Numbered from the stretch's first letter, positions 5,698 through 40,908 are shown. The stretch is DNA of 44,053 bases from a virus (IMGVR_UViG_2597489870_000002:1-44053), one strand, 5' to 3'. A program made the numbers and translations. Notes: a model not told the origin generated them from the sequence alone.

Positions 5698-5776
5698 GTT
5701 ACCGTTGAGGTAATGATTATGCGTATTTGGTTTGGTGTCAATAGATATGAGTTAAAAAAATTACCCTTAAGGTAAT
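5698..5776. promoter_or_regulatory. Two ATTACC-N5-GGTAAT operators flanking a putative leftward early promoter
   Basis: GTTACCGTTGAGGTAAT (5698-5714) and a perfect ATTACCCTTAAGGTAAT (5760-5776). Between them, GGTGTCAATAG (5734-5744) has a complement containing TTGACA. An ATTTGGTT box lies at 5725-5732. Confidence 0.6.
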
Positions 5777-5786
5777 TGTGCAGGCA

Positions 5787-5811
5787 ATAAAAAAGCCGCC
5801 AGAAGGCGGCT
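5787..5811 (-). terminator. Rho-independent terminator after the repressor gene
   Basis: Stem AGCCGCC / GGCGGCT with loop AGAA. On the minus strand it is followed by a T-run (TTTTTTATT). Confidence 0.8.
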
Positions 5812-5832
5812 TACTTACTGAAAAATATGATT

Positions 5833-6417
5833 TTATTGTTTGTTTTTTTCGTTCTGGTTGATGACAAATTCAATGTAACTTTCGATCTTTGCTTTCTCGG
5901 TTTCGGGTAACAATGCGTAGCGCGAGCGGTCATAGTTGATGGTCGCAGGGTCGTGCGGGTGAATCAGTAATTCATAGCCGTGACGCCCGAATGCGGATGC
6001 AACATTCTCCAGGGTGGAAATGGAAACGCTGACCTCATTGTTTAACAGGCGGCTGATTGTCACCTGGGCGACGCCGGATGCGCGGTGAAGTTTTCCCTGT
6101 GTTGAAAGGTCGCGGCTTTCGCTCATCCAGCGTTCCAGGTTGTGAGCCGCCAGCTGACCTATATCGCTCGGGCCGACAGGCTGAAAACCTTCCTGAGAAA
6201 GCGAGCGATCGATATCAAGCCAGTTACGGGGTTTATTGGCGGCAGCTTCAATTTTTCGCGCAACCTGGTCGCCGATAACCTTCTTGCCAAGAGCCCAGCG
6301 GTTTACCAGATTTGCCTGAGTTCCAAGTTTTTCTGCCATCCGCGTCTGAACACCATTGAATTCACGGTCGATCAAGTCGTTGAGATTTTGCCTGCGGACG
6401 TCCTGGATACTTTTCAT
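5833..6417 (-). CDS. Prophage repressor candidate with two XRE-type HTH domains and no obvious S24 peptidase domain
   Basis: 194 aa. HTH1 is QTRMAEKLGTQANLVNRWALGKK and HTH2 is LHRASGVAQVTISRLLNNEVSVSISTLENVASAF. Divergent from the cro-like gene across an operator-rich spacer. Confidence 0.7.
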   Translation of the reverse strand: MKSIQDVRRQNLNDLIDREFNGVQTRMAEKLGTQANLVNRWALGKKVIGDQVARKIEAAANKPRNWLDIDRSLSQEGFQPVGPSDIGQLAAHNLERWMSESRDLSTQGKLHRASGVAQVTISRLLNNEVSVSISTLENVASAFGRHGYELLIHPHDPATINYDRSRYALLPETEKAKIESYIEFVINQNEKNKQ

Positions 6418-6471
6418 TTTCTGGAAAATCGCCTCATATATGAATCAGTAGATGATTCAATTTAAAGCAAT

Positions 6472-6536
6472 ATTACCCAACAGGTAAATGCACCCCATAG
6501 GTAACTATCCTTGATTTTTGTTACCTTATGGGTGAA
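6472..6536. promoter_or_regulatory. Immunity-region operators (three palindrome copies)
   Basis: ATTACCCAACAGGTAAA (6472-6488) abuts TGCACCCCATAGGTAAC (6489-6505). GTTACCTTATGGGTGAA (6520-6536) lies between a TTGTTA -35-like hexamer and a TATTAT -10-like hexamer for the rightward gene. Confidence 0.6.
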
Positions 6537-6571
6537 TATTTATTATCTGAAATAAATATCAGGCAATAGCT

Positions 6572-6802
6572 ATGAGCGATAACGGACATTTCGATTTCAA
6601 AAAGCACTGGCTTGCACTTACTCCGGATGAGCGTGAAGCCTTCGCACAGGAAGCCGGAACGACGAGTCACTATATCCAGACTCACTTAACAGGTAAGCGC
6701 AAAATGCCAGGTAAGGTATTGATGAATGGGCTTTTTAAAGCCTGTAAAACAAGACAATGGCTGCGCTCAAAAGCAGAACTGGCATACTTCTTCTACTCAT
6801 GA
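6572..6802 (+). CDS. Cro-like small DNA-binding protein
   Basis: 76 aa, divergent from the repressor. AQEAGTTSHYIQTHLTGKRKMP is HTH-like. Confidence 0.6.
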   Translation: MSDNGHFDFKKHWLALTPDEREAFAQEAGTTSHYIQTHLTGKRKMPGKVLMNGLFKACKTRQWLRSKAELAYFFYS

Positions 6803-6823
6803 TATCCAGCCACAACCCTCTGT

Positions 6824-6847
6824 AGACCGCCATCCGGCGGTCTTTTC
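6824..6847 (+). terminator. Rho-independent terminator after the cro-like gene
   Basis: Stem AGACCGCC / GGCGGTCT with loop ATCC, followed by TTTTC. Confidence 0.7.
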
Positions 6848-6856
6848 ATATCTATT

Positions 6857-6891
6857 CGTACCTCAAAGGTAATAAAAAACCAAATGTGGTT
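6857..6891 (+). promoter_or_regulatory. Palindrome plus ATGTGGTT box
   Basis: CGTACCTCAAAGGTAAT (6857-6873), then ATGTGGTT (6884-6891) embedded in AACCAAATGTGGTT. Confidence 0.5.
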
Positions 6892-6953
6892 GATCTTTTT
6901 TTTGTGTCAGCACAAAATAACCGTAATCCCAATACTAATAACAGGGCTTACCA

Positions 6954-7153
6954 TGGAAATCATTACACGTATTGATGCCGCAAAGCGCGGACTTAAACGC
7001 TATTACACCGGAAAACAATGTAAGCACGGACATGACAGTGAACGCTGGGTTTACAACGGACACTGTGTTGAGTGCACCATGGAATCAAACCGTCGCATCA
7101 GGGCAGAGATTAAGCAGATCATGATTAATTCCTCCCCACAACACTCAAGCTGA
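6954..7153 (+). CDS. Small Cys/His-rich (zinc-ribbon-like) protein
   Basis: The internal ATG at 6954 (MEIITRIDAAKRGLKRYYTGKQCKHGHDSERWVYNGHCVECT) is preferred over the track start at 6884, which is part of a regulatory motif. Confidence 0.55.
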
Positions 7154-7168
7154 TAGCGGAGATTAATC

Positions 7169-7984
7169 ATGAGCAGACATGCAACAGATTGGGCTTGGGA
7201 GACAGATCCAGGCAGCTCATCATTAAAGCTCATACTGCTCTCGATGGCTGACAGAGCCGATGAATATAACCTCTGCTACCCCAGCATAGAACGCCTCGTT
7301 AAAGACACTTGCCTGAATAAAAAAACCGTGCAGGCCGGGCTTATATCGCTCATGAAAATGGGGCTTATTTCAGATACCGGAGAGAGAAAGGGAGCGACAA
7401 AAAGAGTGCGGGTTTTCTCTCTTAATATAACCAAAAACGGGAACATTAAAGGCAACCGAGAGGGGGTCAATGAACCCGAAAACGGTAATGTTACCGAAAA
7501 CGGGAATATACCCAAAAACGGGATGTTGAATGATCCCAAAAACGGGATGTTGAATGATCCCAAAAACGGGATCCAGAACCAGTCATATAACCAGTCATTT
7601 AACCAAGAGAGGGAGAGCAGGACAAAAAACGGGGATTCTGTGCATCATGACCCCGGCGCAAACAACGCCGTGATGAATAACTTTGTTCCTCTTGGTGGGC
7701 CAGGGCAATTAGGCAAATTTGTCATGCATGAACAATGGCAGCCATCAGATGACTTTCTTCGGAAAAGCTCATTGCAGGGGATCTACCTGGACAGTCTGCC
7801 AACGGCACAGGAACTTGCAGAGTTCAGAATTTACTGGATGGCTGAGGGTAAGGCATACCATCAGGCACAGTGGGAGCAGAAGCTGGCAAGGCGGCTGCAG
7901 ATTAGCAGACAGAAGCAATCAACATTACCTGATAACAACGTTCCGCACTGGAACAGCCCTGAAGCATGGGAGGATTTCTTGTGA
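7169..7984 (+). CDS. Replication initiator (lambda O-like role) with N-terminal wHTH
   Basis: 271 aa. The N-terminus ATDWAWETD..LKLILLSMADRADEYNLCYPSIERLVKDTCLNKKTV is typical of phage replication-protein HTH domains. The gene contains the iteron array and is followed by a P-like gene. Confidence 0.7.
   Translation: MSRHATDWAWETDPGSSSLKLILLSMADRADEYNLCYPSIERLVKDTCLNKKTVQAGLISLMKMGLISDTGERKGATKRVRVFSLNITKNGNIKGNREGVNEPENGNVTENGNIPKNGMLNDPKNGMLNDPKNGIQNQSYNQSFNQERESRTKNGDSVHHDPGANNAVMNNFVPLGGPGQLGKFVMHEQWQPSDDFLRKSSLQGIYLDSLPTAQELAEFRIYWMAEGKAYHQAQWEQKLARRLQISRQKQSTLPDNNVPHWNSPEAWEDFL
7430..7605 (+). repeat. Origin-type iterons inside the initiator gene
   Basis: Six copies of CC(A/G)AAAACGG(G/T)A, with ACGG at 7437, 7482, 7500, 7518, 7542 and 7566. 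These include a perfect 24-bp tandem CCCAAAAACGGGATGTTGAATGAT x2 (7511-7558) plus a partial third copy. AACCAGTCATWT x2.5 follows at about 7575-7605. Confidence 0.75.
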
Positions 7985-8766
7985 ACAACGTTTTTACCGC
8001 GATACAAAACCGTGACGGAGAAGCCCTTTCTCGCATGTCAGGTTATGAGCATCAGTACACCAACAATGACAACGTGGTGAACATGTCAGCAGAGAGGCTT
8101 GTTGATGCCCTTTTCAAACAGCTGAAACAACTGTTTCCGGCGGCAGTGGTAACCAACCTGAAGACGCCAGAGCAGGAAGTTGCTGCAAAACAGCAGTGGA
8201 TTGCTGCGTTTGCCGAAGGGGGGATCCGAACCCGTGAACAGGTTTCTGCTGGTATGCGCCACGCCCGCGCCAGCGAATCTCCGTTCTGGCCGTCGCCAGG
8301 GCAATTTATCAAGTGGTGCAAAGACAGCAAGATGGTTCTTGGCGTCACCATTGACGATGTGATGGCGGAGTTTCACCGGTACAGCAAGGAAAAAAGTTTA
8401 TATCCTGGTGGTCCCGAAAGATTCCCGTGGCGGCATCCGGTTATGTACTGGGTCGTATGTGATACCCGCCGTGCAATGTATCAGCGCCAGCTTAGCGAGA
8501 TTGAGGTTGAGAAACACGCGCGCAGGCTGCTCGATGATTGGGCGAAAAAGGTGGCTTCCGGACAGCAGATACCCGATCCGGTGATCAGCATACAGGCAAA
8601 GCCAGAGCCCATGAGTACACCTCCGGACACAGGGAGAGACGTTTACCACCCGCCAGGGCGAAGTTTCGGGTGCATGCCTAACGCCGCCACCCTGGGGGGA
8701 ATAACACCGGCGCAGTGGCTGATGGAGGAATACAGGCGGGGAAAGGCGGCAGGATTTATCAAGTAA
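7981..8766 (+). CDS. Lambda P-like replication protein (helicase loader)
   Basis: Collinear similarity to lambda P from memory: QQWIAAFAEGGIRTREQVSAGMRHARASESPFWPSPGQFIKWCK versus lambda RRQWVLAFRENGITTMEQVNAGMRVARRQNRPFLPSPGQFVAWC. The start is uncertain: GTG at 7981 overlapping the upstream TGA, or ATG at 7966. Confidence 0.8.
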   Translation: MNNVFTAIQNRDGEALSRMSGYEHQYTNNDNVVNMSAERLVDALFKQLKQLFPAAVVTNLKTPEQEVAAKQQWIAAFAEGGIRTREQVSAGMRHARASESPFWPSPGQFIKWCKDSKMVLGVTIDDVMAEFHRYSKEKSLYPGGPERFPWRHPVMYWVVCDTRRAMYQRQLSEIEVEKHARRLLDDWAKKVASGQQIPDPVISIQAKPEPMSTPPDTGRDVYHPPGRSFGCMPNAATLGGITPAQWLMEEYRRGKAAGFIK

Positions 8767-8771
8767 TACCA

Positions 8772-8791
8772 GCGCGATAGCGCATTTTTTT
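8772..8791 (+). terminator. Possible short terminator
   Basis: GCGC-GATA-GCGC followed by seven T residues. The stem is short. Confidence 0.4.
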
Positions 8792-8802
8792 ACGTCTCAA
8801 TA

Positions 8803-8881
8803 ATTACCTATGAGGTAATAAAATATTCTAAAATCTATTGATTTCGTGTCTTATGTGGTTTTTAATTACCTCAGGGGTAAA
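8803..8881 (+). promoter_or_regulatory. Two palindromes bracketing a promoter-like region
   Basis: Perfect ATTACCTATGAGGTAAT (8803-8819). TTGATT (8838-8843), a 17-nt spacer containing ATGTGGTT (8853-8860), then TTTAAT (8861-8866). ATTACCTCAGGGGTAAA (8865-8881) ends 3 nt before the ATG at 8884. Confidence 0.55.
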
Positions 8882-8883
8882 TC

Positions 8884-10761: not shown

Positions 10762-10762
10762 G

Positions 10763-11979: not shown

Positions 11980-12176
11980 TGGATAAATGTCGCGGAGTTT
12001 TAGGCTTTCTGTTCGGTCATTCATATCGTCATGCAATTACCAGAGGCTATCCTTCCGCAAAACTTGGGGAAGTGAAAGGTAGCAGCTCGTTCATCATCAG
12101 TTTGATAGATAAAACAAGGCCAGAGACATTTCATGGCATCTACTGCAAGCGATGCGGGAAGGTGATCAATGGCTAA
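11979..12176 (+). CDS. Hypothetical small protein
   Basis: The ATG at 11979 overlaps the upstream TGA. The track start is a GTG at 11976. Confidence 0.5.
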   Translation: MDKCRGVLGFLFGHSYRHAITRGYPSAKLGEVKGSSSFIISLIDKTRPETFHGIYCKRCGKVING

Positions 12177-12507
12177 ATCCGCAGCAGAACGCAAAAAAGC
12201 GCAGCGGACCCGCCAGGCAGAAGCCGGTAACCGCAAGCTGGAACTGGTGCTCGACGAGCAGGAAATGGAGATGCTGGCGCTAAACTGCGCCGCCCGTCGC
12301 CCTGGTCGTGCGCCGTATGACATGAACGAGTACATCGCGTTGCTTATCCGCCAGGACGATGCGCGAGTGCGTGGCCGTATCAAGTCAATCAGTGCCAACA
12401 AGTGCGGGAAGTGCGGCGATGCGCTGCCAGTTGAGTCGTGTCCGTGCGATGGTGATTCTCAGTGCTGGGTGACACGTGGCTGGCATGAGACTAAATTATC
12501 AGTGTGA
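12169..12507 (+). CDS. Hypothetical protein with RHH-like N-terminus and Cys-rich C-terminus (possible regulator)
   Basis: 112 aa. SAAERKKAQRTRQAEAGNRKLELVLDEQEMEML, then CGKCGD..CPCDGDSQC. The last gene before the packaging module. Confidence 0.6.
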   Translation: MAKSAAERKKAQRTRQAEAGNRKLELVLDEQEMEMLALNCAARRPGRAPYDMNEYIALLIRQDDARVRGRIKSISANKCGKCGDALPVESCPCDGDSQCWVTRGWHETKLSV

Positions 12508-12537
12508 CAGTCACGCTAGCGACAATAAATTGCAATG

Positions 12538-12564
12538 GCCGCCGACTATGGCGGCTTTGTTTTG
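12538..12564 (+). terminator. Rho-independent terminator
   Basis: Stem GCCGCC / GGCGGC with loop GACTAT, followed by TTTGTTTT. Confidence 0.75.
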
Positions 12565-12573
12565 CGTGTTACT

Positions 12574-12608
12574 ATTACCAAAACGGTAATTATTACTTTG
12601 GTGGTAAC
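12574..12608 (+). promoter_or_regulatory. Tandem palindromes immediately upstream of terS
   Basis: Perfect ATTACCAAAACGGTAAT (12574-12590) and ATTACTTTGGTGGTAAC (12592-12608). The ATG is at 12610. Confidence 0.6.
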
Positions 12609-14727: not shown

Positions 14728-15333
14728 TTAGTCCTGTAAATATTCTTCGGTGCTCACAGCCAGCCGGCCTTCTAACAGTTCAGCGTGAGTGCTATCAATG
14801 ATAACCGAATGATGCGGGTGAACATTTTGAGCCAGCCATTTAATTACTGGTCTTGTCACTTCTTCGAATGAGTCAGCTAAGGCTTTGTTTGTGTCTGTGA
14901 TATTGCAATCACCAAGATTAATGGCATCAAATCCAGCGTTGATGGCTTCCGCAATATTGGTGGCATTGGTTTTATCGAATTGCCCATTCTGAATAAGCGC
15001 CGCATGCAGACATTGTAACTTCATGTTGTATAAGTGTTCTCGCATGTAATCATCATCACTTTTTTCTTTAGCGTAAACAGCGCGAGAAATATCAAATACA
15101 TTACCTTTTTCCATTTCCGTCCGCTGGGCTGCAATCCAGTCATGACTTGTAACGCTAGTCCCATGGTCTTCACTAAGCGGTAACCCGGCCAGTCGTTCAC
15201 CAGGAATTACCTCGTAATGCATTTCGTTACCGGCAAAAACACCATAAAAAATAGAGTCATCAGCTTGAACGATGCGGGAATATTTTAAAGGCCATTCATT
15301 TAGATATTTAGCCAACATATCAACTGTTTTCAT
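14728..15333 (-). CDS. Hypothetical 201-aa moron protein
   Basis: AT-rich ORF in the opposite orientation between terL and the portal gene. SD AAGGTGAG lies upstream. I recognise no motif in it. Confidence 0.7.
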   Translation of the reverse strand: MKTVDMLAKYLNEWPLKYSRIVQADDSIFYGVFAGNEMHYEVIPGERLAGLPLSEDHGTSVTSHDWIAAQRTEMEKGNVFDISRAVYAKEKSDDDYMREHLYNMKLQCLHAALIQNGQFDKTNATNIAEAINAGFDAINLGDCNITDTNKALADSFEEVTRPVIKWLAQNVHPHHSVIIDSTHAELLEGRLAVSTEEYLQD

Positions 15334-15541: not shown

Positions 15542-15618
15542 TGGTGCGGCATGCAGGATTCGAACCTGCGGCCAACCGCTTAGAAGGCGGTTGCTCTATC
15601 CAACTGAGCTAATGCCAC
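15542..15618 (-). tRNA. tRNA-Arg (anticodon UCU), argU-like, with CCA encoded
   Basis: Hand-folded cloverleaf: GTGGCAT-TA-GCTC-AGTTGGATA-GAGC-A-ACCGC-CTTCTAA-GCGGT-TGGCC-GCAGG-TTCGAAT-CCTGC-ATGCCGC-A-CCA. Confidence 0.9.
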
Positions 15619-15881: not shown

Positions 15882-15960
15882 ATTACCTAAAAGGTAATAT
15901 CTGATGTTATAGGTGTCAATAGCCTACGCTAAATAAATCATATGTGGTTAAATTGGTAAT
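15882..15960. promoter_or_regulatory. Palindrome and promoter-like elements between the tRNA unit and the head operon
   Basis: Perfect ATTACCTAAAAGGTAAT (15882-15898). GGTGTCAATAG (15912-15922) has a complement containing TTGACA. ATGTGGTT (15942-15949), N5, then GGTAAT (15955-15960). Confidence 0.55.
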
Positions 15961-15987: not shown

Positions 15988-16194
15988 ATGTGTATCGGCA
16001 GCAAGCCATCAGTGCCAGCAGCACCAGAAGTACAGGCCGCGCCACAGGAGCAGGATGCAGCAGTTGTCAGTTCTCGTGACGACGAAGAGCGCCGCCGCCG
16101 TGCAGCCGCTGGCCGCAGTTCCACTCTGCTGACTGGTGCACAGGGCGACACCTCAACCGCAAACACCAGCGGTAAAACGCTGCTCGGTCAGTAA
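15988..16194 (+). CDS. Small hypothetical protein preceding the portal gene
   Basis: 68 aa with the SD GGAG upstream. First gene of the head operon. Confidence 0.6.
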   Translation: MCIGSKPSVPAAPEVQAAPQEQDAAVVSSRDDEERRRRAAAGRSSTLLTGAQGDTSTANTSGKTLLGQ

Positions 16195-33540: not shown

Positions 33541-34233
33541 TCAGAAGAACCCTGCCTTGTCGTTGATGTACTCCGCGTGCGTCTGGATATCACGCAGGCA
33601 TTTGCTCACACCGACGATGTAGCAGAACATGGTGGTCAGTTCCGCCGCCGCGCCCGATACATCATGCCCGTCGTCCTGCAACTGGTTTAGCAGATTCATC
33701 AGCAGTGAGTTCTCCGTCAGGCCGAGAACACCAGACGGCGAGTGAATCAGGCTACGGTAGCCTGGCTTCAGTGGGGCACTGTAGGTTTTGTTCTCTATCT
33801 TCATTGCCTGCATCACTGCTGATGCTGTGGCGTTGGCTACCTGGTCGGCAACCATCTTTATGCGCTCTTCCTGCGGGAGCGAGTTTTTAATGTAGCTTCC
33901 GGTGCGGCGGATCTGAGGAAGAACCTCACCTGTAACCCATTCAAGAAATCTGAATGCTCTCGTTCCCTCAGTCATTGCCTCTTTGCAACGCAGAATAAGG
34001 ATGTAGAGACCTGATTCTGAAACGATGGATAGTTCTTGTATTCCACCAGGGGTCTGTATTGAATACAGCCCCTTTTTGTTCCAGCCTTTTTTATCAAGTT
34101 TTCTCGCTTGTGTAACATCAATATTCAAAGCATTGCACACATCTTTGGTGACAAACCAAGGTTCTCCGTCAATCATGAACATACGGATCTGGCAGGATGA
34201 CTCAAAGGAAAAGATGGAAGGTTTGGTATTCAT
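33541..34233 (-). CDS. Bro-N/KilA-N-type antirepressor
   Basis: ATG at 34233 (MNTKPSIFSFESSCQIRMFMIDGEPWFVTKDVCNALNI = BRO-N pattern). The C-terminal roughly 75 aa are paralogous to ORF 35379..35636. Confidence 0.75.
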   Translation of the reverse strand: MNTKPSIFSFESSCQIRMFMIDGEPWFVTKDVCNALNIDVTQARKLDKKGWNKKGLYSIQTPGGIQELSIVSESGLYILILRCKEAMTEGTRAFRFLEWVTGEVLPQIRRTGSYIKNSLPQEERIKMVADQVANATASAVMQAMKIENKTYSAPLKPGYRSLIHSPSGVLGLTENSLLMNLLNQLQDDGHDVSGAAAELTTMFCYIVGVSKCLRDIQTHAEYINDKAGFF

Positions 34234-34499: not shown

Positions 34500-34609
34500 T
34501 TTACCGCAAAGGTAATGATAAGCGAGGAGAAATATCAAAATCAACCGTATTTGGTTGATGGAGTTTAACGCTTGATCACCTGAAAGCAAGATATTACCTT
34601 TAAGGTAAT
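34500..34609. promoter_or_regulatory. Two palindromes and an ATTTGGTT box in the ant / 242-aa divergent region
   Basis: TTTACCGCAAAGGTAAT (34500-34516). TCAACCGTATTTGGTTGA (34541-34558), an inverted repeat containing ATTTGGTT (34549-34556). Perfect ATTACCTTTAAGGTAAT (34593-34609). Confidence 0.55.
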
Positions 34610-34628: not shown

Positions 34629-35357
34629 ATGGAAGTTTTCTGGATAGTTGTTGGTGTGGTTGCGGTGATTATTTACGTTATCAACCAGAACAAGACTAAG
34701 ATCTCTGATCGTACGGTCGTTAATCAGAACAAAACGATAAAGACCGAAGATGGGGAGATAACGATTAATCGTACACAGGTGATAGACCGCACCTCCACTC
34801 AGTTTCACAAAGCTGGAGGTGATGCGCCTAATATTTCCGTACCTCCTGATTATGATAGTGCGGTAATCCAGACATATTATAAACAGCAGGAGTTAGCAAA
34901 AGAGAGGCAACTGATTCAGCCAAAGCCATTTACAGCAGAGCTGCCACCTGGTGTGTCAACGCGTCCGACATATCATGGAAGATTCCCTGGTGATGACATA
35001 TCGTCTCAGTCACCTAAAAAAGCACTTCAGGTAGTATCAGAGCCAGCAAGAATACCTTCTGTGTCGCCGCCAAAAGAAGAATCAGCTAACAGAGTTTCAA
35101 GTGGTAGCAAGCAGTGTTTGCGATGCAGAATAAACCTTCCATATGAAAAATTCAGGAAATCTTCAAAAAATCCAGATGGATTGACTAAGTGGTGTGCAAG
35201 GTGTCTCGATGGCCCAAAGAATACACGCCATATGAAGTGGTGCCCAATTTGTAATGTCCGCAGAAAACGAACCAGCTTTTACCCTAATAATCAAAATGCG
35301 GATGGCTTAATGGCATGGTGCAAAACGTGCTGGGACGAGCACAAAGCGAAACGATAG
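34629..35357 (+). CDS. Membrane-anchored protein with two C-terminal zinc-ribbon repeats
   Basis: 242 aa. N-terminal TM MEVFWIVVGVVAVIIYVI. Repeats CLRCRINLPYEKFRKSSKNPDGLTKWCARC and CPICNVRRKRTSFYPNNQNADGLMAWCKTC. Confidence 0.7.
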   Translation: MEVFWIVVGVVAVIIYVINQNKTKISDRTVVNQNKTIKTEDGEITINRTQVIDRTSTQFHKAGGDAPNISVPPDYDSAVIQTYYKQQELAKERQLIQPKPFTAELPPGVSTRPTYHGRFPGDDISSQSPKKALQVVSEPARIPSVSPPKEESANRVSSGSKQCLRCRINLPYEKFRKSSKNPDGLTKWCARCLDGPKNTRHMKWCPICNVRRKRTSFYPNNQNADGLMAWCKTCWDEHKAKR

Positions 35358-35380
35358 GCCGCTCTTGCGGCCTTTTCTTT
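35356..35380 (+). terminator. Rho-independent terminator
   Basis: AGGCCGC-TCTT-GCGGCCT followed by TTTCTTT. Confidence 0.8.
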
Positions 35381-35636
35381 ATGTGGTTTGTTTTCGTAAT
35401 TGTTCAGCACAATAGTCGAGATGTGTTTGCAGATCCTGCATAGACATCTGTGAGCTGGTGACGTAGTTAATCAGTGCAGTCAGTTCGGCAAGTGGGCCAT
35501 CGACATTAAATCCATCCTTATCGAGATCCCGGAGTAATTTCATCAAGTGCGATCCCTCCACCAGTGACCTGACGCCTCCCGGCGTGTGAATCCTTTCGGT
35601 AAATCCGTCTTCCAGTGGATAGTGATACTGCTGCAT
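35379..35636 (-). CDS. Small antirepressor-like protein, paralog of the Bro-N antirepressor C-terminal domain
   Basis: ATG at 35636 after GGGGAAGA (the track start is a TTG at 35654). About 40% identity by eye over about 77 aa: IHTPGGVRSLVEGSHLMKLLRDLDKDGFNVDGPLAELT..DLQTH versus IHSPSGVLGLTENSLLMNLLNQLQDDGHDVSGAAAELT..DIQTH. Confidence 0.7.
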   Translation of the reverse strand: MQQYHYPLEDGFTERIHTPGGVRSLVEGSHLMKLLRDLDKDGFNVDGPLAELTALINYVTSSQMSMQDLQTHLDYCAEQLRKQTT

Positions 35637-35655: not shown

Positions 35656-35675
35656 AACTGTATATTTATACAGTA
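35656..35675. promoter_or_regulatory. LexA (SOS) box
   Basis: AACTGTATATTTATACAGTA matches 18/20 positions of TACTGTATATATATACAGTA, with CTGT-N8-ACAG intact. It lies 20-39 nt upstream of the 85-aa gene's start. Confidence 0.8.
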
Positions 35676-35711: not shown

Positions 35712-35783
35712 ATCACCTGAAAGGTAATATCTGTTCGTATTTATGGGTTATCTATCCATATGTGGTTTTTCAGGTAATAGAAT
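35712..35783 (+). promoter_or_regulatory. Palindrome, ATGTGGTT box and -10-like element upstream of the tailspike gene
   Basis: ATCACCTGAAAGGTAAT (35712-35728). ATGTGGTT (35760-35767), N5, GGTAAT (35773-35778), overlapping TAGAAT (35778-35783). Confidence 0.55.
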
Positions 35784-36635
35784 AACCGGATATGCGGCGC
35801 AACGGGTGCTGCGACTATCTGGAGATTTAACATGACGGTCTCAACCGAAGTTGACCACAACGAATACACAGGTAACGGCGTTACGACATCATTTCCTTAT
35901 ACCTTTAGGGTTTTCAATAAATCTGATCTGGTAGTGCAGGTGATTGACCCTGACGAGAATATCACTGTGCTGGCTCTTGATACTGATTACACGGTGACGG
36001 GGGCTGGAGGATATACTGGCGGGAATGTCATCCTCACAACTGCTCTGGAGAATGGATTTCGTATTTCGATAGCACGTGAACTCCCAGTTACGCAGGAAAC
36101 CGATCTGCGCAATCAAGGCAAGTTCTTTGCAGAGGTGCATGAGGATGCTTTTGATAAGTTAACTATGCTGCTTCAACAGGTTAGAAGTTGGTTTAGTCTG
36201 GCGCTGCGCAAGCCGTCGTTTGTCGCAAACTACTATGATGCTCTTGGTAACTACATCCGCAATCTTCGTGACCCGTCACGTCCTCAGGATGCGGCCACCA
36301 AGAATTATGTCGACTCACTGGCAAGCATTAATCTGTCTAAAACGCTGAGAATGCCAGAGGCAGTACCAGAGCTTCCAAGCGCTGAGCTGAGAAAAAACAA
36401 AATTGTAGCAATGGATGATTCAGGAAATCCTATCATGGTTCTGCCTGAATCTGGTTCCGCTTCAGATGTAATGATTCAACTTGCATCAAGCAATGGTTTA
36501 AAGTTTATAGGTGATGTTCAGTCTGTTATAAAATTAAATGATGCTATCGGAAACATAGGTGATAAGATTTTTTTAAAGTCTTATGTTGAAGGTGAGAATA
36601 AAGGTGGTGGGATTCTTGTTGCTGTTGATAACTCA

Positions 36636-36696: not shown

Positions 36697-37374
36697 ATGT
36701 CCATCATTTTTAATGGACACTATCGTATGAAACACCGGACCTGGATCACTGAAGCTTTACGTCTTCACTTTGAAGAACATTTACCCCGGGTTGTGGCCGG
36801 GCGTCGCCTGGGTGTACCAAAATCAACAGTTTGTAGTATGTTCGTGCGCTTTCGGAGAGCTGGCCTTTCGTGGCCTTTGCCCGCAGGCATGTCGGAGCAG
36901 GAACTTGATGCCTGCCTTTACGGACAATTTTCCACGGTACCAGTCGTACGTCCTGAAAGCACCGTTATATCCGAAGCCCCCGTGGTAAAAAAACGTCCCC
37001 GGCGGCCCAACTTCCCTTATGAGTTTAAAATCGCCTTAGTGGAGCAGTCACTGCAGCCCGGAGCCTGTGTGGCGCAGATCGCCCGGGAAAACGGAATCAA
37101 CGATAACCTGCTCTTCAACTGGCGCCATCAATACCGGAAAGGTGGCCTGCTGCCTTCCGGAAAAAATATGCCGGCACTGCTTCCCGTGACGTTAACGCCG
37201 GAGCCGGATAATAAAATCCCGGCCCCCGCACAGGAACCAGAGCAGATAAATACACCGTCCGACAGTCTGTGTTGTGAGCTGGTTCTGCCGGCCGGAACTC
37301 TCAGGCTTAAAGGTAAACTGACGCCGGCGTTATTACAGACACTTATCCGCGAAATAAAAGGGAGCAGCCACTGA
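36697..37374 (+). CDS. tnpA: IS66-family accessory protein TnpA (orfA)
   Basis: RRPNFPYEFKIALVEQSLQPGACVAQIARENGINDNLLFNWRHQYRKG. The start is uncertain (an alternative ATG lies at 36727). Confidence 0.75.
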   Translation: MSIIFNGHYRMKHRTWITEALRLHFEEHLPRVVAGRRLGVPKSTVCSMFVRFRRAGLSWPLPAGMSEQELDACLYGQFSTVPVVRPESTVISEAPVVKKRPRRPNFPYEFKIALVEQSLQPGACVAQIARENGINDNLLFNWRHQYRKGGLLPSGKNMPALLPVTLTPEPDNKIPAPAQEPEQINTPSDSLCCELVLPAGTLRLKGKLTPALLQTLIREIKGSSH

Positions 37375-37721
37375 TGATATCTCTCCCTGCAGGTTCGCGT
37401 ATCTGGCTGGTTGCAGGTATCACCGATATGCGAAATGGCTTTAACGGCCTGGCATCAAAAGTTCAGAACGTCCTGAAGGATGACCCGTTCTCCGGACACC
37501 TGTTCATCTTCCGCGGACGCCGGGGTGACCAGATAAAAGTGTTGTGGGCTGACAGTGACGGACTGTGCCTCTTCACCAAACGCCTGGAGCGGGGCCGCTT
37601 CGTCTGGCCAGTCACCCGTGACGGCAAGGTGCACCTTACTCCGGCTCAGTTATCCATGCTTCTTGAAGGTATCAACTGGAAGCACCCGAAACGAACGGAA
37701 CGCGCTGGAATCCGCATATAA
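37374..37721 (+). CDS. tnpB: IS66-family TnpB (orfB)
   Basis: 115 aa. ..RIWLVAGITDMRNGFNGLASKVQ..DPFSGHLFIFRGRRGDQIKVLWAD is the classic IS66 orf2. ATGA-type coupling to orfA. Confidence 0.9.
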   Translation: MISLPAGSRIWLVAGITDMRNGFNGLASKVQNVLKDDPFSGHLFIFRGRRGDQIKVLWADSDGLCLFTKRLERGRFVWPVTRDGKVHLTPAQLSMLLEGINWKHPKRTERAGIRI

Positions 37722-37740
37722 CCCGTTGTAAAGTGAGGAT

Positions 37741-39312
37741 ATGGACACCTCACTTGCTCATGAGAACGCCCGCCTGCGGGCACTGTTGCAGACGCAACAG
37801 GACACCATCCGCCAGATGGCTGAATACAACCGCCTGCTCTCACAGCGGGTGGCGGCTTATGCTTCCGAAATCAACCGGCTGAAGGCGCTGGTTGCGAAAC
37901 TGCAACGTATGCAGTTCGGTAAAAGCTCAGAAAAACTTCGTGCAAAAACCGAACGGCAGATACAGGAAGCACAGGAGCGAATCAGCGCACTTCAGGAAGA
38001 AATGGCGGAAACGCTGGGTGAGCAATATGACCCGGTACTGCCATCCGCCCTGCGCCAGTCTTCAGCCCGTAAACCGTTACCGGCCTCACTTCCCCGTGAA
38101 ACCCGGGTTATCCGGCCGGAAGAGGAATGCTGTCCTGCCTGTGGTGGTGAACTCAGTTCTCTGGGATGTGATGTGTCAGAGCAACTGGAGCTTATCAGCA
38201 GCGCCTTTAAGGTTATCGAAACACAACGTCCGAAACAGGCCTGTTGCCGGTGCGACCATATCGTGCAGGCACCAGTACCTTCAAAACCCATTGCACGCAG
38301 TTATGCCGGAGCGGGGCTTCTGGCCCATGTTGTCACCGGGAAATATGCAGACCATCTGCCGTTATACCGCCAGTCAGAAATATACCGTCGTCAGGGAGTG
38401 GAGCTGAGCCGTGCCACACTGGGGCGCTGGACAGGTGCTGTTGCTGAACTGCTGGAGCCGCTGTATGACGTCCTGCGCCAGTATGTGCTGATGCCCGGTA
38501 AAGTCCATGCTGATGATATCCCCGTCCCGGTCCAGGAGCCGGGCAGCGGTAAAACCCGGACAGCCCGGCTGTGGGTCTACGTCCGTGATGACCGTAACGC
38601 CGGTTCACAGATGCCCCCGGCGGTCTGGTTCGCGTACAGTCCGGACCGGAAAGGTATCCATCCACAAAATCACCTGGCCGGTTACAGCGGTGTGCTTCAG
38701 GCCGATGCTTACGGTGGTTACCGGGCGTTATACGAATCCGGCAGAATAACGGAAGCCGCGTGTATGGCTCATGCCCGGAGAAAAATCCACGATGTGCATG
38801 CAAGAGCGCCCACCTACATCACCACGGAAGCCCTGCAGCGTATCGGTGAACTGTATGCCATCGAGGCAGAGGTCCGGGGCTGTTCAGCAGAACAGCGTCT
38901 GGCGGCAAGAAAAGCCAGAGCCGCGCCACTGATGCAGTCACTGTATGACTGGATACAGCAACAGATGAAAACACTGTCGCGTCACTCAGATACGGCAAAA
39001 GCGTTCGCATACCTGCTGAAACAGTGGGATGCACTGAACGTGTACTGCAGTAATGGCTGGGTGGAAATCGACAACAACATCGCAGAGAACGCCTTACGGG
39101 GAGTGGCCGTAGGCCGGAAAAACTGGATGTTCGCGGGTTCCGACAGCGGTGGTGAACATGCGGCGGTGTTGTACTCGCTGATCGGCACATGCCGTCTGAA
39201 CAATGTGGAGCCAGAAAAGTGGCTGCGTTACGTCATTGAACATATCCAGGACTGGCCGGCAAACCGGGTACGCGATCTGTTGCCCTGGAAAGTTGATCTG
39301 AGCTCTCAGTAA
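37741..39312 (+). CDS. tnpC: IS66-family transposase TnpC (orfC)
   Basis: 523 aa with an N-terminal leucine-zipper-like coil, a CPACGG zinc motif and a DDE-type core (..LQADAYGGY..). Confidence 0.9.
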
Positions 39313-39342
39313 ATATCAATACGGTTCTGACGAGTCGCTTAC

Positions 39343-39350
39343 CTATTAGC
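39343..39350. repeat. Target-site duplication, right copy
   Basis: CTATTAGC. Confidence 0.9.
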
Positions 39351-40848
39351 AGATGATATAGTTATATTTAATGGTAATGGAGTGAAATGGAGACGTCTAT
39401 TTTTTACTGGTGAAGTAACTGTATTCGACGCTGGTTATACAGGCTCTGGCGACATTGCTCAATATATAAACAAAATAAATTCAGCAGGATATGACTGCGT
39501 TATTCCATGCTCAGGTGATTTTTCGAGTGCTATTGCAATAGATGTAAGCAAGGGCAGCGTAAGGGGGGTAAATAAATGCATACTTACCGAGATTCCAGGC
39601 GTATCTGGAGATTATGCGCTGACGATTGTTAACTCAAATACAGATTATGCTGACCGTGATGCAATTAATGCTACAGCTATCATTGACGGAGTAGCATTTA
39701 ATTTCATGGGCACCAAAAAAGTTGGTTTGGGAGGGGTAGGTACTGGGGATCTTTCAGAGTTGCGGATCAGTAACGTGGGTATGATTGGTTCCGCTGGTGT
39801 AGAATTCCTGGAAAATTCATATCGTTTGATGTTCGATAAATTTGCTATATCGAGAAGCTTTACCAACACTATCATTTTTAACTCGCCAGCAAATTCTGGT
39901 GAGGTTATTAAATTCAGTCACGGTTGGATGGTTGATAATGGTGGACCGCTAACATTTAATAACGGTCAATTTATTTTTGACTCATGCTCAATGCCTGCCG
40001 GGAAGAAAGTGGGTTATTTAGAGCCAAGTGTAATTATGCATGGCAACGCTCACGTTGTTTATGCTAACGGTAATGTCGAATTCCAGCCCGGGCAGAGCTT
40101 TGTAGCCTTTGTTGTGGATGGCAGTTCAAGGCTGTCAATCAAGGACACCACCATACTTACGCCTACTGGTTATTCAGCCATACCAATAATCGCAAATGAT
40201 GATGGGGTTGTGTCACTGACAAACTGCTCTCTTCCATTATATGACCAGAAGGATCTGGCTGCTGGCGCTGCTACTCGTCAAGTGATTGGTGGAAATAGTA
40301 AGAAGGTTATCTCCCGTGGATGCTACCCTCGGGCAGGTTTTATAACATCCAACTGGGATAAGGGTAATATAGTTAGTCCATTTATCAACGCGCTAAGTAA
40401 TGGTAGTGGTCAGTTCTCAAACTATTCCAACTGGGTTTTGGCACAAAAAGGTACAGGTGTCGTAACTGCGGGTACTGATACGGATGTCCCTAACACTGTT
40501 ATGTTTTCCAGATCACTGTATGTGAATATTCCATCGGTTGGGGCTGCTGCTGATTTTTATCAGGAATGCTTAGAATGCGAGCCAGGGCGGTATTTCCAGT
40601 TAGGTTTCTGGGCTAAAAATCAAGTTACAACAATTTCTGGAATTGAATTTTTTGATAAAGAAGGTAACTCAGTACAAGGTAAAGGAACATTTACAATTCC
40701 AACTGGTTCTACATTTAATTTCTACGCATTAATAGATGTTGTTCCTCCTGGTGCAAGTAAGGTTAGGATTGGATTTGATGTATCAGGATCGGTTGGTTCT
40801 CTTCATATCCATAATGCTATTTATGGATTGATATAAACACTAAATTTC

Positions 40849-40908
40849 CTTACCTTTAAGGTAAAGATTTTAAGATGCATTTAAGGTAATTATTACTCAT
40901 ATATGGTT
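40849..40908 (+). promoter_or_regulatory. Palindrome and ATATGGTT box upstream of the lysis cassette
   Basis: CTTACCTTTAAGGTAAA (40849-40865). GGTAATTATTACT (40885-40897) is the same 13-mer as at 12585-12597. ATATGGTT (40901-40908), then TGTGTATGAT. Confidence 0.5.

What the first reader, a model, noticed from the sequence alone, without database searches (positions are those of the whole stretch)
5725..40908. Second recurrent box (c)ATGTGGTT accompanying the palindromes
**Occurrences.**
- Exact ATGTGGTT, all on the plus strand: 6884, 8853, 15942, 35381 and 35760.
- One-mismatch forms: ATTTGGTT at 5725 and 34549, ATATGGTT at 40901.

Seven of the eight lie 10-45 bp downstream of an ATTACC-N5-GGTAAT site. 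The exception is 35381, which sits beside a terminator.

**Shared late-type architecture.** Upstream of the head operon and of the tailspike gene the arrangement is the same: AAAGGTAATATCTG, then 31-43 nt, then catATGTGGTT, N5, GGTAATA.

**Position relative to the promoter.** At 8853 the box fills the spacer between a TTGATT -35-like hexamer and a TTTAAT -10-like hexamer. At 35760 it would sit at about -29 to -22 relative to TAGAAT, with no good -35 hexamer. That pattern suggests activator-dependent promoters.

**Statistics.** An 8-mer is expected about 1.3 times on both strands combined in this window. I have not scanned the coding sequence exhaustively.
Basis: seen in the sequence. Interest (0 to 1): 0.5.

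Follow-up and report, generated by a model that had tools for sequence, protein, structure and literature searches.

The report
Second regulatory dyad of ε15-like prophage
The recurring ATGTGGTT box is real: it is one half of a 14-base palindromic site (about AACCATATATGGTT) found in nearly every promoter region of this ε15/phiV10-type E. coli prophage and its relatives, and it most likely marks where a second, so far unstudied phage regulator binds next to the known repressor sites.

Summary
The window is an ε15/phiV10-like (Uetakevirus) prophage of E. coli ETEC H10407. All eight listed copies are at the stated coordinates. As a bare 8-mer the count is marginal: 5 found against 1.8 expected, and one-mismatch forms are not enriched.

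The box is mis-delimited. It is the right half of a 14-bp dyad, A(A/T)(C/T)CATAT(A/G)TGGTT, i.e. AACC-N6-GGTT.

- **Distribution.** A matrix built only from relatives' late promoters finds 6 loci of at least 13 bits in the 3.7 kb of intergenic DNA. It finds none in 40 kb of coding DNA. Shuffled intergenic DNA gives 0.14.
- **Conservation.** The same sites recur at syntenic positions in ε15, SPC32H, Tyrion and BUCT711, flanked by variable sequence.
- **Exception.** The 35381 copy is the last codons of the antirepressor gene.
- **Palindromes.** ATTACC-N5-GGTAAT is the known Rep operator.

The dyad sits in core promoters at three positions. It overlaps the -35 (centre about -41) at P(gp40) and P(BRO). 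It fills the spacer at PL and Pmiddle. It covers about -36 to -20 at the head, tailspike and lysis promoters.

Best reading: an operator for a second phage HTH dimer, probably the 434-Cro-like gp39 homologue. The "activator box" idea is only partly supported.

The parts
5719..5732 (.). Dyad copy ATGCGTATTTGGTT (weak left half). It forms the last 14 nt of the 17-nt spacer of the leftward early promoter PL (TTGACA 5741-5736, AATCAT 5718-5713, minus strand). The Rep operator 5698-5714 lies 4 nt away.
   Evidence: (13.8 bits). The syntenic copy in Tyrion is near-perfect (ATCCATATATGGTT). A copy is present in BUCT711 and absent in eps15 and SPC32H.
6878..6891 (.). Dyad copy AACCAAATGTGGTT (perfect AACCA/TGGTT arms) between the gp39-like gene's terminator and the gp40-like gene. 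Rep-like operator 6857-6873 lies 4 nt upstream. The last TT of the dyad starts the -35-like TTGATC (6890-6895), followed by a 17-nt spacer and CAAAAT (6913-6918). The dyad centre is at about -41.
   Evidence: The arrangement operator-N4/5-dyad-GATCTTTTTT is conserved in eps15 (33749), SPC32H (34799), Tyrion (35385) and BUCT711 (6013).
8847..8860 (+). Dyad copy TGTCTTATGTGGTT (degenerate left half). It forms the last 14 nt of the spacer of Pmiddle: TTGATT 8838-8843, TCG, dyad, TTTAAT 8861-8866. Rep operator 8865-8881 begins inside the -10. A second Rep operator lies at 8803-8819.
   Evidence: The same architecture, with better dyads, is seen in Tyrion (AACCGTATATGGAT), BUCT711 (ATCCGTTTATGGTT) and eps15 (ACTCATTTGTGGTT).
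15936..15949 (+). Dyad copy AATCATATGTGGTT upstream of the head operon (gp3-like gene at 15988). It is followed by N5, the GGTAAT half-site 15955-15960 and -10-like TAATTT/AATAAT. Rep operator 15882-15898 lies 37 nt upstream.
   Evidence: (19.7 bits). The invariant block AT(G/A)TGGTTAAATTGGTAATAATTTAAT is seen in 57 distinct relatives, flanked by variable segments.
34543..34556 (.). Dyad copy AACCGTATTTGGTT in the divergent region between the BRO-N gene (33541-34233, minus) and gene 34629-35357. On the minus strand its last TT starts the -35 of a leftward promoter, TTGATT-18-TATCAT (34544-34515). The -10 of that promoter runs into Rep operator 34500-34516.
   Evidence: (14.8/14.6 bits).
35754..35767 (+). 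Dyad copy ATCCATATGTGGTT upstream of the tailspike gene (35832). It is followed by N5, the GGTAAT half-site 35773-35778 and -10 TAGAAT 35778-35783. The dyad spans about -36 to -23. Rep-like operator 35712-35728 lies 25 nt upstream.
   Evidence: (21.7 bits). Sixty distinct relatives keep AT.CATATnnGGTT-N5-GGTAATAGAAT, while about 25 nt upstream is variable.
40895..40908 (+). Dyad copy ACTCATATATGGTT upstream of the lysis cassette (holin at 40971). GGTAAT half-site 40885-40890 lies 4 nt upstream and -10 TATGAT 40916-40921 lies 7 nt downstream. Rep-like operator at 40849-40865.
   Evidence: (19.4 bits). In 45 distinct relatives the flanks differ completely and conservation starts at (A)ACCATATATGGTT, mostly a perfect palindrome. 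Seven have no Rep site nearby.
35381..35388 (+). An ATGTGGTT copy that is NOT part of the family. It is the reverse complement of the last codons (ACC ACA TAA, ...QTT*) of the antirepressor gene 35379-35636 (minus), next to the terminator 35356-35373.
   Evidence: The Ant C-terminus ...RKQTT* is conserved in eps15, SPC32H and Tyrion. The 14-mer scores below 9 bits.
6572..6802 (+). gp39-like gene (76 aa, WP_001282459.1), the first and only gene between PR and a terminator. It is the best candidate for the dyad-binding protein (434-Cro/YdaS-like HTH).
   Evidence: (phrog_35 'transcriptional repressor').
5833..6417 (-). Rep repressor (194 aa), homologue of SPC32H Rep (PDB 5D50). It binds the ATTACC-N5-GGTAAT palindromes that accompany the dyads.
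   Evidence: (eps15 record annotates these palindromes as repressor binding sites).
12169..12507 (+). 112-aa predicted regulator (RHH-like beta-alpha-alpha plus a Cys-rich C-terminus), the last gene before terS. It is the alternative candidate for a late regulator acting on the dyad.
   Evidence: (phrog_536).

Best explanation
ATGTGGTT is the right half of a 14-bp dyad-symmetric site, consensus A(A/T)(C/T)CATAT(A/G)TGGTT (AACC-N6-GGTT). This site is a second family-wide operator of epsilon15-like (Uetakevirus) phages. It is distinct from the Rep operator ATTACC-N5-GGTAAT (core ACC-N5-GGT).

One copy lies in each of seven transcription-control regions of this prophage. It is always inside or touching the core promoter, and usually 3-5 bp from a Rep half-site.

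**Proposed binding protein (inferred, not shown).** It is probably bound by a dimer of a small phage HTH protein. The best candidate is the 76-aa gp39 homologue. This is a 434-Cro/YdaS-like protein made from the only promoter that lacks the dyad (PR) as soon as Rep is inactivated.

**Proposed effects (all inferred from geometry).**
- Where the dyad overlaps the -35 by 2 bp (centre about -41, like CI at OR2): P(gp40) for replication genes and the leftward BRO-N promoter. Here it would help RNA polymerase.
- Where it fills the -35/-10 spacer: PL and Pmiddle. Here it would turn transcription down, as Cro does.
- At the head, tailspike and lysis promoters it covers about -36 to -20, where no consensus -35 exists. 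Here it either substitutes for the -35 (activation) or delays late transcription.

**Shown versus inferred.** Shown: the motif, its dyad symmetry, its restriction to regulatory DNA, its syntenic conservation and its geometry. Inferred: the identity of the protein and the sign of regulation.
For: **Motif reality.**
- A PWM made only from relatives' late promoters finds 6 loci of at least 13 bits in 3.7 kb of intergenic DNA and 0 in 40.3 kb of coding DNA.
- Shuffled intergenic DNA gives a mean of 0.135, and 0 of 1000 shuffles reach 3.
- Three of the six loci (5719, 6878, 34543) are not homologous to the training sites.

**Dyad symmetry.**
- 6878 reads AACCAAATGTGGTT.
- Relatives' lysis promoters carry the perfect palindrome AACCATATATGGTT, with conservation starting exactly there.

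**Synteny.** Strong hits occur only at the equivalent regulatory regions in eps15, SPC32H, Tyrion and BUCT711.

**Constraint beyond sigma70.** Conserved non-consensus bases (the invariant C and T inside the -35-position hexamer T.CATA, and GGTT inside the spacer) point to a constraint other than sigma70 recognition.

**Independence from Rep.**
- The half-site and spacing differ from the Rep operator.
- 7 of 45 distinct lysis promoters have the dyad with no Rep site within 70 nt.
- Rep operators at terS and PR have no dyad.

**Promoter geometry.**
- PL is TTGACA-17-AATCAT with the dyad as spacer.
- Pmiddle has the same layout in five genomes.
- P(BRO) is TTGATT-18-TATCAT with the dyad overlapping the -35.
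- P(gp40) has GG[TTGATC]-16/17-CAAAAT conserved in five genomes.

**gp39 as candidate.**
- It matches phrog_35, 'transcriptional repressor'.
- Its HTH resembles that of the Rep N-terminal domain.
- The AF2 model has pLDDT 83. Its best fold matches are the 434 repressor DNA-binding domain, YdaS, 434 Cro and R-M C-proteins.
- From established knowledge, 434 operators are 14-bp ACAA-N6-TTGT, the same geometry as the dyad.
- The recognition helix AGTTS(H/N)YIQTHLTG is nearly invariant across the whole narrow family, matching an invariant DNA target.
- It is the sole gene of the dyad-less PR transcript.
Against: - No binding or expression data exist. The protein assignment rests on fold, geometry and gene position only.
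- All candidate regulators (gp39, the 112-aa RHH-like protein, PerC-like, AlpA-like) co-occur with the dyad in every genome checked. Presence/absence and covariation therefore could not discriminate between them.
- The fold matches have weak E-values, 0.7 and above.
- A Cro-like repressor sitting on the core of late promoters is unusual. The strongest dyads are at the late promoters and the weakest at PL and Pmiddle. PL lacks the dyad in eps15 and SPC32H. This fits a positive late role better than simple Cro-type turn-down.
- The P(gp40) promoter assignment matches only 8 of 12 consensus positions and was not called by the scan.
- The relatives used for footprinting are phylogenetically close.
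Confidence: 0.5

Rival explanations
1. The dyad is the recognition site of a dedicated late-gene activator. It replaces the missing -35 at the head, tailspike and lysis promoters. The activator would be the 112-aa RHH-like/Cys-rich regulator encoded just before terS, or another phage factor. The early and middle copies would serve feedback shut-off, as with phi29 p4, Mu C or the T4 MotA box.
For: - Late promoters have good -10 hexamers (TAGAAT, TATGAT) and no consensus -35.
- In the lysis promoter nothing upstream of the dyad is conserved.
- The late copies are the strongest, at 19-22 bits.
- The 112-aa protein matches phrog_536, 'transcriptional regulator'. It is predicted as beta-alpha-alpha (RHH-like), is conserved in all five genomes, and sits last in the middle operon, the classic place for a late activator.
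Against: - The distance from the dyad to the -10 is not fixed: 10 nt at tailspike and head, 7 nt at lysis.
- The element also occupies spacers and -35 edges of non-late promoters.
- SPC32H, a viable phage with the same dyads, has a replaced N-terminal arm in its homologue. The residues preceding the RHH strand differ.
- The family extends to N15 gp46 and to Yersinia and Vibrio phages in other contexts.
- The AF2 model has low confidence, pLDDT 60.
Confidence: 0.2
2. The dyad is an auxiliary, lower-affinity part of an extended Rep binding site. One DNA-binding pair of the Rep tetramer sits on ATTACC-N5-GGTAAT. The other pair, or the C-terminal HTH_3 domain, sits on the adjacent dyad two helical turns away.
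For: - A Rep half-site lies 3-5 bp from the dyad at PL, P(gp40), Pmiddle and lysis, and 5 bp away at head and tailspike.
- Centre-to-centre distance is about 20 bp.
- Rep is a tetramer with two DNA-binding pairs (PMC9638917 discussing SPC32H Rep; PDB 5D50 match).
- Rep has a second HTH_3 domain.
- The cores are related: ACC-N5-GGT against ACC-N6-GGT.
Against: - Half-site sequence and spacing differ from the operator.
- Dyads occur without any Rep site in 7 of 45 lysis promoters.
- Rep operators occur without dyads at terS, PR and 33460.
- The Rep C-terminal HTH region is poorly conserved between phages that share the same dyad.
- At PR, tandem Rep operators abut with 17-bp spacing, a different geometry.
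Confidence: 0.12
3. The dyad is a loading site for a promoter-proximal antiterminator, analogous to the lambda QBE or the P. aeruginosa AlpA-binding element. Both of those lie between -35 and -10. Loading would let polymerase read through the terminators that punctuate this genome.
For: - At PL and Pmiddle the dyad occupies the same spacer position as the ABE, which lies at -25 to -20 of PalpB (PMC7969949, PMC9371919).
- terS is preceded by a terminator and tandem Rep operators with no room for a promoter, so read-through from Pmiddle is needed.
- Terminators are annotated inside the operons of eps15 and phiV10.
Against: - No Q-like or P. aeruginosa AlpA-like protein was found. The AlpA-family protein here is an 82-aa excisionase-type wHTH (best match PDB 8C3T). 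It is unrelated to the 8-helix P. aeruginosa AlpA.
- A dyad suggests a dimer, whereas AlpA loads as a monomer on an asymmetric site.
- At late promoters the dyad is not in the spacer.
- No clear sigma-dependent pause element lies at a fixed distance.
Confidence: 0.06
4. There is no separate function. The similarity would reflect chance plus shared ancestry (duplicated promoter cassettes) and AT-rich promoter composition.
For: - The exact 8-mer count is only marginally above chance.
- The head and tailspike regions share a longer block, AAAGGTAATATCTG...catATGTGGTT-N5-GGTAATA, that could be a duplication.
- Many footprinting sequences are close relatives.
Against: - The ratio is 6 intergenic loci to 0 coding loci, with 0.135 expected.
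- The element is flanked by variable or unrelated sequence at tailspike and lysis.
- It is present at non-homologous loci (PL, P(gp40), P(BRO)) and at syntenic places in genomes whose Rep is only 42-45% identical.
- The palindromic symmetry is not explained by promoter composition.
Confidence: 0.04

Closest known systems
Lambdoid CI/Cro operator systems, especially phage 434 (14-bp operators ACAA-N6-TTGT bound by 434 repressor and Cro)
   Same: It is a 14-bp dyad with 4-bp outer half-sites and a 6-bp AT-rich centre. It is placed in or against core promoters. A small five-helix HTH protein with a 434-repressor/Cro-like predicted fold is encoded by the first gene of the rightward early transcript. 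At two promoters the site overlaps the -35 by 2 bp, like OR2 at PRM.
   Different: In 434 and lambda, repressor and Cro share the same operators, clustered at OL and OR. Here the presumed Cro-like site differs from the Rep operator. It is dispersed over seven promoter regions, including the late (head, tailspike, lysis) operons. Binding has not been demonstrated.
Rep operator of epsilon15/SPC32H-type phages (ATTACC-N5-GGTAAT; annotated 'repressor' protein_bind sites in AY150271; Rep structure PDB 5D50)
   Same: Same genomes and same promoter regions, often 3-5 bp apart. The cores are related (ACC...GGT). Both are distributed genome-wide in front of every operon.
   Different: The half-sites differ (AACC against ATTACC), as does the spacing (N6 against N5 between ACC and GGT). 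The dyad occurs without Rep sites and Rep sites occur without the dyad. The dyad is not annotated in any record examined.
Restriction-modification controller (C) proteins and their C-boxes; phi29 p4
   Same: A small dimeric regulator acts positively or negatively depending on whether its dyad lies at the -35 edge or over the core promoter. C-proteins are among the fold matches of gp39. For phi29 p4, one protein switches early promoters off and a late promoter on.
   Different: There is no sequence-level family membership. C-boxes are paired sites at a single promoter. p4 binds far upstream (about -82) and bends DNA. No experimental support exists here.
Promoter-embedded antiterminator sites (lambda QBE; P. 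aeruginosa AlpA-binding element GGGACG-N5-GGTA between -35 and -10)
   Same: At PL and Pmiddle the dyad fills the -35/-10 spacer. The genome relies on read-through of several terminators.
   Different: No Q/AlpA-type protein was identified. The element is symmetric. At late promoters it is not in the spacer.

Membership tests
Cro/CI-type (XRE, 434-like) operator | Dyad-symmetric site of about 14-17 bp | tested here: met
   AACCAAATGTGGTT at 6878. Perfect AACCATATATGGTT in relatives' lysis promoters and in Tyrion.
Cro/CI-type (XRE, 434-like) operator | Located in or overlapping core promoter elements of regulated operons | tested here: met
   Spacer of PL and Pmiddle; -35 edge of P(gp40) and P(BRO); about -36 to -20 at late promoters.
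Cro/CI-type (XRE, 434-like) operator | Cognate small HTH dimer encoded in the immunity region | tested here: inconclusive
   The gp39 homologue has a 434-repressor/YdaS-like predicted fold and matches phrog_35. Dimerisation and specificity are unknown.
Cro/CI-type (XRE, 434-like) operator | Specific protein-DNA binding demonstrated | not testable with these tools
   Needs EMSA, footprinting or ChIP.
Rep operator (ATTACC-N5-GGTAAT) | Half-sites ATTACC/GGTAAT separated by 5 bp | tested here: not met
   The dyad is AACC-N6-GGTT. The matches to the palindrome pattern listed are separate 17-mers, none of which covers a dyad.
Rep operator (ATTACC-N5-GGTAAT) | Obligate association with the Rep palindrome, as would be expected of a composite site | tested here: not met
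   7 of 45 distinct lysis promoters have the dyad with no Rep site within 70 nt. Rep sites at terS and PR lack dyads.
Activator box of -35-less late promoters (MotA-box / Ogr / Mu C type) | Target promoters lack a functional -35 but have a good -10 | tested here: inconclusive
   True for head and lysis. The tailspike has TTCATA/TCCATA at -35 (3-4 of 6) with TAGAAT. Not true for PL and Pmiddle.
Activator box of -35-less late promoters (MotA-box / Ogr / Mu C type) | Fixed distance between box and -10 | tested here: not met
   The gap from GGTT to the -10 is 10 nt (tailspike, head), 7 nt (lysis), 0 nt (PL, Pmiddle) and about 21 nt (P(gp40), P(BRO)).
Activator box of -35-less late promoters (MotA-box / Ogr / Mu C type) | Restricted to one temporal class of genes | tested here: not met
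   Found at early-left, replication, middle, antirepressor-like and late operons.
Antiterminator loading site (QBE/ABE) | Q- or AlpA(Pae)-type antiterminator encoded by the element | tested here: not met
   Among the ten small early-region, regulatory and antirepressor proteins scanned, none is Q-like. The AlpA-family protein matches the excisionase-type 8C3T, not P. aeruginosa AlpA. The remaining middle-operon ORFs were not scanned.
Antiterminator loading site (QBE/ABE) | Element between -35 and -10, with a sigma-dependent pause element downstream | tested here: inconclusive
   The spacer position holds at PL and Pmiddle only. No consistent -10-like pause element was identified.

The most novel reading that the evidence does not exclude
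A single small Cro-like protein (gp39) acts as the master temporal switch of epsilon15-like phages through one dispersed dyad. From about -41 it activates the replication and antirepressor promoters. From the spacer it shuts down the early promoters. At about -30 it replaces the -35 at all three late promoters. Together with genome-wide Rep operators, this would be a two-protein, two-operator 'flat' circuit controlling every operon, with no Q-type antiterminator and no dedicated late activator.
Probability: 0.2. Interest if true: 0.65.

Novelty: new member of a known kind. Interest (0 to 1): 0.45.

Why it matters
Epsilon15, phiV10 and SPN1S/SPC32H are model and applied phages, used for serotype conversion, reporter phages and the structurally solved Rep-Ant switch. 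What times their middle and late transcription is not known, and neither is the function of the conserved gp39-type protein.

A second, family-wide operator present in nearly every promoter region gives a concrete, cheap-to-test hypothesis for that missing layer. It also provides defined late-promoter cores (dyad plus -10) for engineering. Finally, it shows that the Rep palindromes alone do not describe the regulatory code of these prophages.

Tried and rejected
1. **Bare 8-mer statistics.** These are marginal, and one-mismatch forms are not enriched. They were replaced by a PWM and positional analysis.
2. **Literature.**
   - The epsilon15 genome paper and the two SPC32H Rep/Ant papers are not held.
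   - A full-text search for the dyad sequences returned only unrelated primers.
   - The ZX5 paper gives predicted promoters only.
3. **P. aeruginosa AlpA lead.** The element position is similar, but the protein family is unrelated to the phage's AlpA-family wHTH.
4. **Covariation test for the binding protein.**
   - The gp39 recognition helix and the dyad are both invariant across the family.
   - All candidate regulators co-occur in all five genomes.
   - The test therefore has no discriminating power.
5. **Rep-anchored loci.** All 80 returned loci (L324-L403) encode Rep identical to the window's and added nothing.
6. **More distant relatives.**
   - The L128-L137 group carries a Q-like antiterminator gene upstream of the tailspike and lacks the dyad there.
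   - Sodalis phiSG1 is a mosaic and is uninformative.
   - N15 gp46 is a homologue of the 112-aa protein, but in an unrelated context.
7. **Host-factor sites.** CRP, Fis, IHF, PhoP, DnaA and sigma54 motifs were compared by eye from memory and do not fit. This was not a formal test.
8. **Alternative late -10.** Reading a -35 'TTGnnn' from the dyad's end, as at P(gp40), gives no conserved -10 at the late promoters.

Full report
**Context.** The window is identical to E. coli ETEC H10407 NC_017633.1 2839786-2883838, reverse-complemented. It is an epsilon15/phiV10-like (Uetakevirus) prophage. Its layout, in window coordinates:
- integrase at 1-1257;
- a leftward early operon, 1260-5679;
- the Rep repressor, 5833-6417 (minus strand);
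- a 76-aa gp39-like gene, 6572-6802, followed by a terminator;
- replication genes;
- a middle operon from 8884;
- terS and terL;
- the head operon from 15988;
- a tailspike gene split by an IS66-family element;
- the lysis cassette from 40971.

The ATTACC-N5-GGTAAT palindromes that the finding refers to are already known. The epsilon15 GenBank record annotates them as repressor binding sites in front of terS, the head operon, the tailspike and the early promoters. The window's Rep is a clear homologue of SPC32H Rep, PDB 5D50. They are highly non-random here: 5 exact and 16 at up to 2 mismatches, against 0 and 1.08 expected.

**Checking the observation.**
- Seven lie 11-44 nt downstream of a Rep-type palindrome.
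- As a bare 8-mer the evidence is thin: 5 copies against 1.79 expected, with 4 of 100 shuffles reaching 5.
- One-mismatch variants are not enriched, 45 against 38.7.
- The signal is positional. AT[AGT]TGGTT occurs 9 times on both strands, 8 of them in the 8.4% of the window that is intergenic.
- The exception, 35381, is the reverse complement of the last codons and stop of the antirepressor gene (...RKQTT*). These are conserved at protein level in relatives. This copy is coding sequence, not a regulatory box.

**What the box really is.** I collected relatives around five anchors (portal, tailspike N-terminus, holin, DUF1064 and Rep), 80 IMG/VR loci each. I also used four complete genomes (epsilon15, SPC32H, Tyrion, BUCT711).
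- Upstream of the lysis cassette the flanks of different relatives are unrelated, because of different moron insertions. Conservation begins exactly at (A)ACCATATATGGTT, a perfect 14-bp palindrome, followed by TATTGTG-TATGAT.
- Upstream of the tailspike, 60 distinct sequences keep operator, about 25 variable nt, then AT.CATATnnGGTT-N5-GGTAATAGAAT.
- Upstream of the head operon an invariant block AT(G/A)TGGTTAAATTGGTAATAATTTAAT is flanked by variable patches.
- In the window, 6878-6891 reads AACCAAATGTGGTT with perfect AACCA/TGGTT arms.

The unit is therefore a dyad, A(A/T)(C/T)CATAT(A/G)TGGTT, i.e. AACC-N6-GGTT. The apparent plus-strand bias reflects which half happens to be degenerate at each site.

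**Statistics of the dyad.** I built a PWM from 40 distinct 14-mers taken only from relatives' head, tailspike and lysis promoters and scanned both strands.
- At 13 bits or more the window has six loci: 5719, 6878, 15936, 34543, 35754 and 40895. All are intergenic, and none lies in the 40.3 kb of coding DNA.
- Shuffled intergenic DNA gives 0.135 loci on average. None of 1000 shuffles reaches 3.
- Three of the six loci are not homologous to the training sites.
- The seventh copy, 8847-8860, has a degenerate left half and scores low. Its syntenic counterparts in Tyrion, BUCT711 and epsilon15 score 13-21 bits.
- In every genome the strong hits fall only in the same regulatory regions: PL (not in epsilon15 or SPC32H), the gp39/gp40 intergenic region, the middle-operon promoter, head, tailspike, lysis, and an antirepressor/BRO region.
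- These genomes have Rep proteins only 42-45% identical to the window's, so the conservation is not simply recent common descent of the whole region.
- An exact lysis-promoter block is also found in Citrobacter braakii, C. werkmanii and Superficieibacter electus genomes.

**Geometry.** Three arrangements recur.
- **(A) Dyad overlapping a -35 by 2 bp, centre about -41.**
  - P(gp40) reads GG[TTGATC]-17-CAAAAT, followed by a Rep half-site. This is conserved in five genomes.
  - The leftward promoter toward the BRO-N gene reads TTGATT-18-TATCAT, running into Rep operator 34500-34516.
- **(B) Dyad as the last 14 nt of a 17-nt spacer.**
  - PL reads TTGACA-CCA-dyad-AATCAT-TACC... on the minus strand, matching 10 of 12 consensus positions.
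  - Pmiddle reads TTGATT-TCG-dyad-TTTAAT-TACC....
  - In both, the Rep operator starts inside the -10.
- **(C) Late promoters.**
  - At tailspike and head the dyad spans about -36 to -23, followed by N5, a GGTAAT half-site and TAGAAT or TAATTT.
  - At lysis it spans about -33 to -20, with TATGAT 7 nt downstream.

A Rep half-site lies 3-5 bp from the dyad at most sites. The two elements are separable, though. Seven of 45 distinct lysis promoters have the dyad with no Rep site within 70 nt, and the Rep operators at terS, PR and 33460 have no dyad.

In the tailspike promoter the hexamer at the -35 position is T.CATA. Its invariant C and T are non-consensus, and its variable position is the second, where the consensus has T. 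GGTT inside the spacer is also conserved. This points to a constraint other than sigma70 recognition.

**Who binds it (inference).** The symmetry and the 4+6+4 layout match operators of 434-type HTH dimers (ACAA-N6-TTGT, from established knowledge).

Evidence on the gp39 homologue:
- It matches phrog_35, 'transcriptional repressor'.
- Its HTH weakly resembles that of the Rep N-terminal domain.
- Its AF2 model (pLDDT 83) is closest to the 434 repressor DNA-binding domain, YdaS, 434 Cro, SinR and R-M C-proteins. TM-scores are 0.55-0.65, although the E-values are weak.
- Its family is narrow: 48 clusters, all at least 61% identical. Its recognition helix AGTTS(H/N)YIQTHLTG is almost invariant, as is the dyad.
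- It is the only gene transcribed from PR before a terminator, and PR is the one early promoter without the dyad.

The related cores of the two operators (ACC-N5-GGT for Rep, ACC-N6-GGT for the dyad) parallel the distant similarity of the two HTH domains.

Evidence on the main alternative, the 112-aa protein encoded just before terS:
- It matches phrog_536 and is predicted beta-alpha-alpha plus a Cys-rich tail, but with pLDDT of only 60.
- Its homologue in SPC32H has a different N-terminal arm although the dyads are unchanged.
- The family also occurs in N15 and in Yersinia and Vibrio phages.

The other two candidates are poor fits:
- The PerC-like protein resembles ANR-type non-DNA-binding regulators.
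- The AlpA-family protein is an excisionase-type wHTH, unrelated to the P. aeruginosa AlpA antiterminator.

**How it probably works.**
- By analogy with CI/434 repressor at OR2 and with C-proteins, a dimer centred near -41 could activate P(gp40) and P(BRO).
- In a spacer it should repress. This would be a Cro-like turn-down of PL and Pmiddle.
- At the late promoters the sign is open. The variable distance to the -10 (7 against 10 nt) and the overlap with the core promoter favour a repressive or timing role.

My estimates are about 0.9 that the dyad is a functional cis-element, about 0.7 that it is the operator of a phage-encoded regulator other than Rep, and about 0.4-0.45 that this regulator is gp39. 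I also put about 0.35-0.4 on its acting positively at the late promoters.

**Novelty.** The Rep palindromes are known. The dyad is not annotated in the epsilon15, phiV10, SPC32H, Tyrion or BUCT711 records examined. The epsilon15 record is otherwise richly annotated with repressor, IHF, RNase III and integrase sites. A full-text search for the sequence found nothing relevant, but the key primary papers were not available to read. It is best classed as a new member of a known kind: a second operator in a temperate-phage switch. It is of moderate interest to phage biologists.

Noticed in passing
window 35832-36516, 36697-39312, 39382-40836: The tailspike gene is split by an IS66-family element (tnpA, tnpB and the ISCro1-family transposase). 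RefSeq marks the N-terminal part as a pseudogene, so this prophage probably cannot make functional virions.
   Followed up: partly
window 35658-35673: A near-consensus LexA box, CTGTATATTTATACAG, lies just upstream of the 85-aa antirepressor gene (35379-35636, minus strand; 88% identical to SPC32H Ant). This indicates SOS-controlled antirepression as described for SPC32H. The tailspike promoter diverges from it.
   Followed up: partly
window 12537-12608: terS is preceded by an intrinsic terminator (GGCCGCCGACTATGGCGGC plus a T-run, 12537-12563). Directly after it come two tandem Rep operators (12574-12590 and 12592-12608), leaving no room for a promoter. terS and terL must therefore depend on read-through from the middle operon. 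The RefSeq terS start (12529) overlaps these elements and is probably too far upstream.
   Followed up: partly
window 40909-40957: The lysis-cassette leader can form a long hairpin (-28 kcal/mol) that encloses the Shine-Dalgarno-like AAGGGGG. Its 5' arm contains the putative -10 TATGAT, so only read-through transcripts from upstream would carry the whole hairpin. The epsilon15 record annotates the equivalent stretch as an RNase III site.
   Followed up: partly
window 5734-5744 and 15912-15922: An identical 11-mer, GGTGTCAATAG, occurs at both places. It is the reverse complement of a TTGACA -35. One copy is the -35 of PL. The other probably belongs to a leftward promoter for tRNA-Arg (15542-15618) and gene 14728-15333, whose -10 would lie inside Rep operator 15882-15898.
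   Followed up: no
loci L128-L137 and L159 (tailspike relatives, 50-56% identity): This group of relatives carries a gene fragment similar to the Q antiterminator of Stx phages just upstream of the tailspike, and it lacks the dyad there. Instead it shows different repeated motifs, such as ATCCAAATGGTTAAT. These relatives may use a different late-control system.
   Followed up: partly
L404 (SPC32H) 38350-38632: The SPC32H homologue of the 112-aa pre-terS regulator has a different, shorter N-terminus (MATTTTRRQNLLE...) in place of the basic helix. This looks like a recombination junction and not a frameshift.
   Followed up: partly
window 6432-6445; L003 33405-33418: Weaker dyad-like palindromes occur in the rep-gp39 intergenic region: CCTCATATATGAAT just upstream of the rep start codon in the window, and ATTCAGATATGAAT next to PR in epsilon15 and SPC32H. 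They are not at conserved positions, so they may be chance or possible autoregulatory sites.
   Followed up: no
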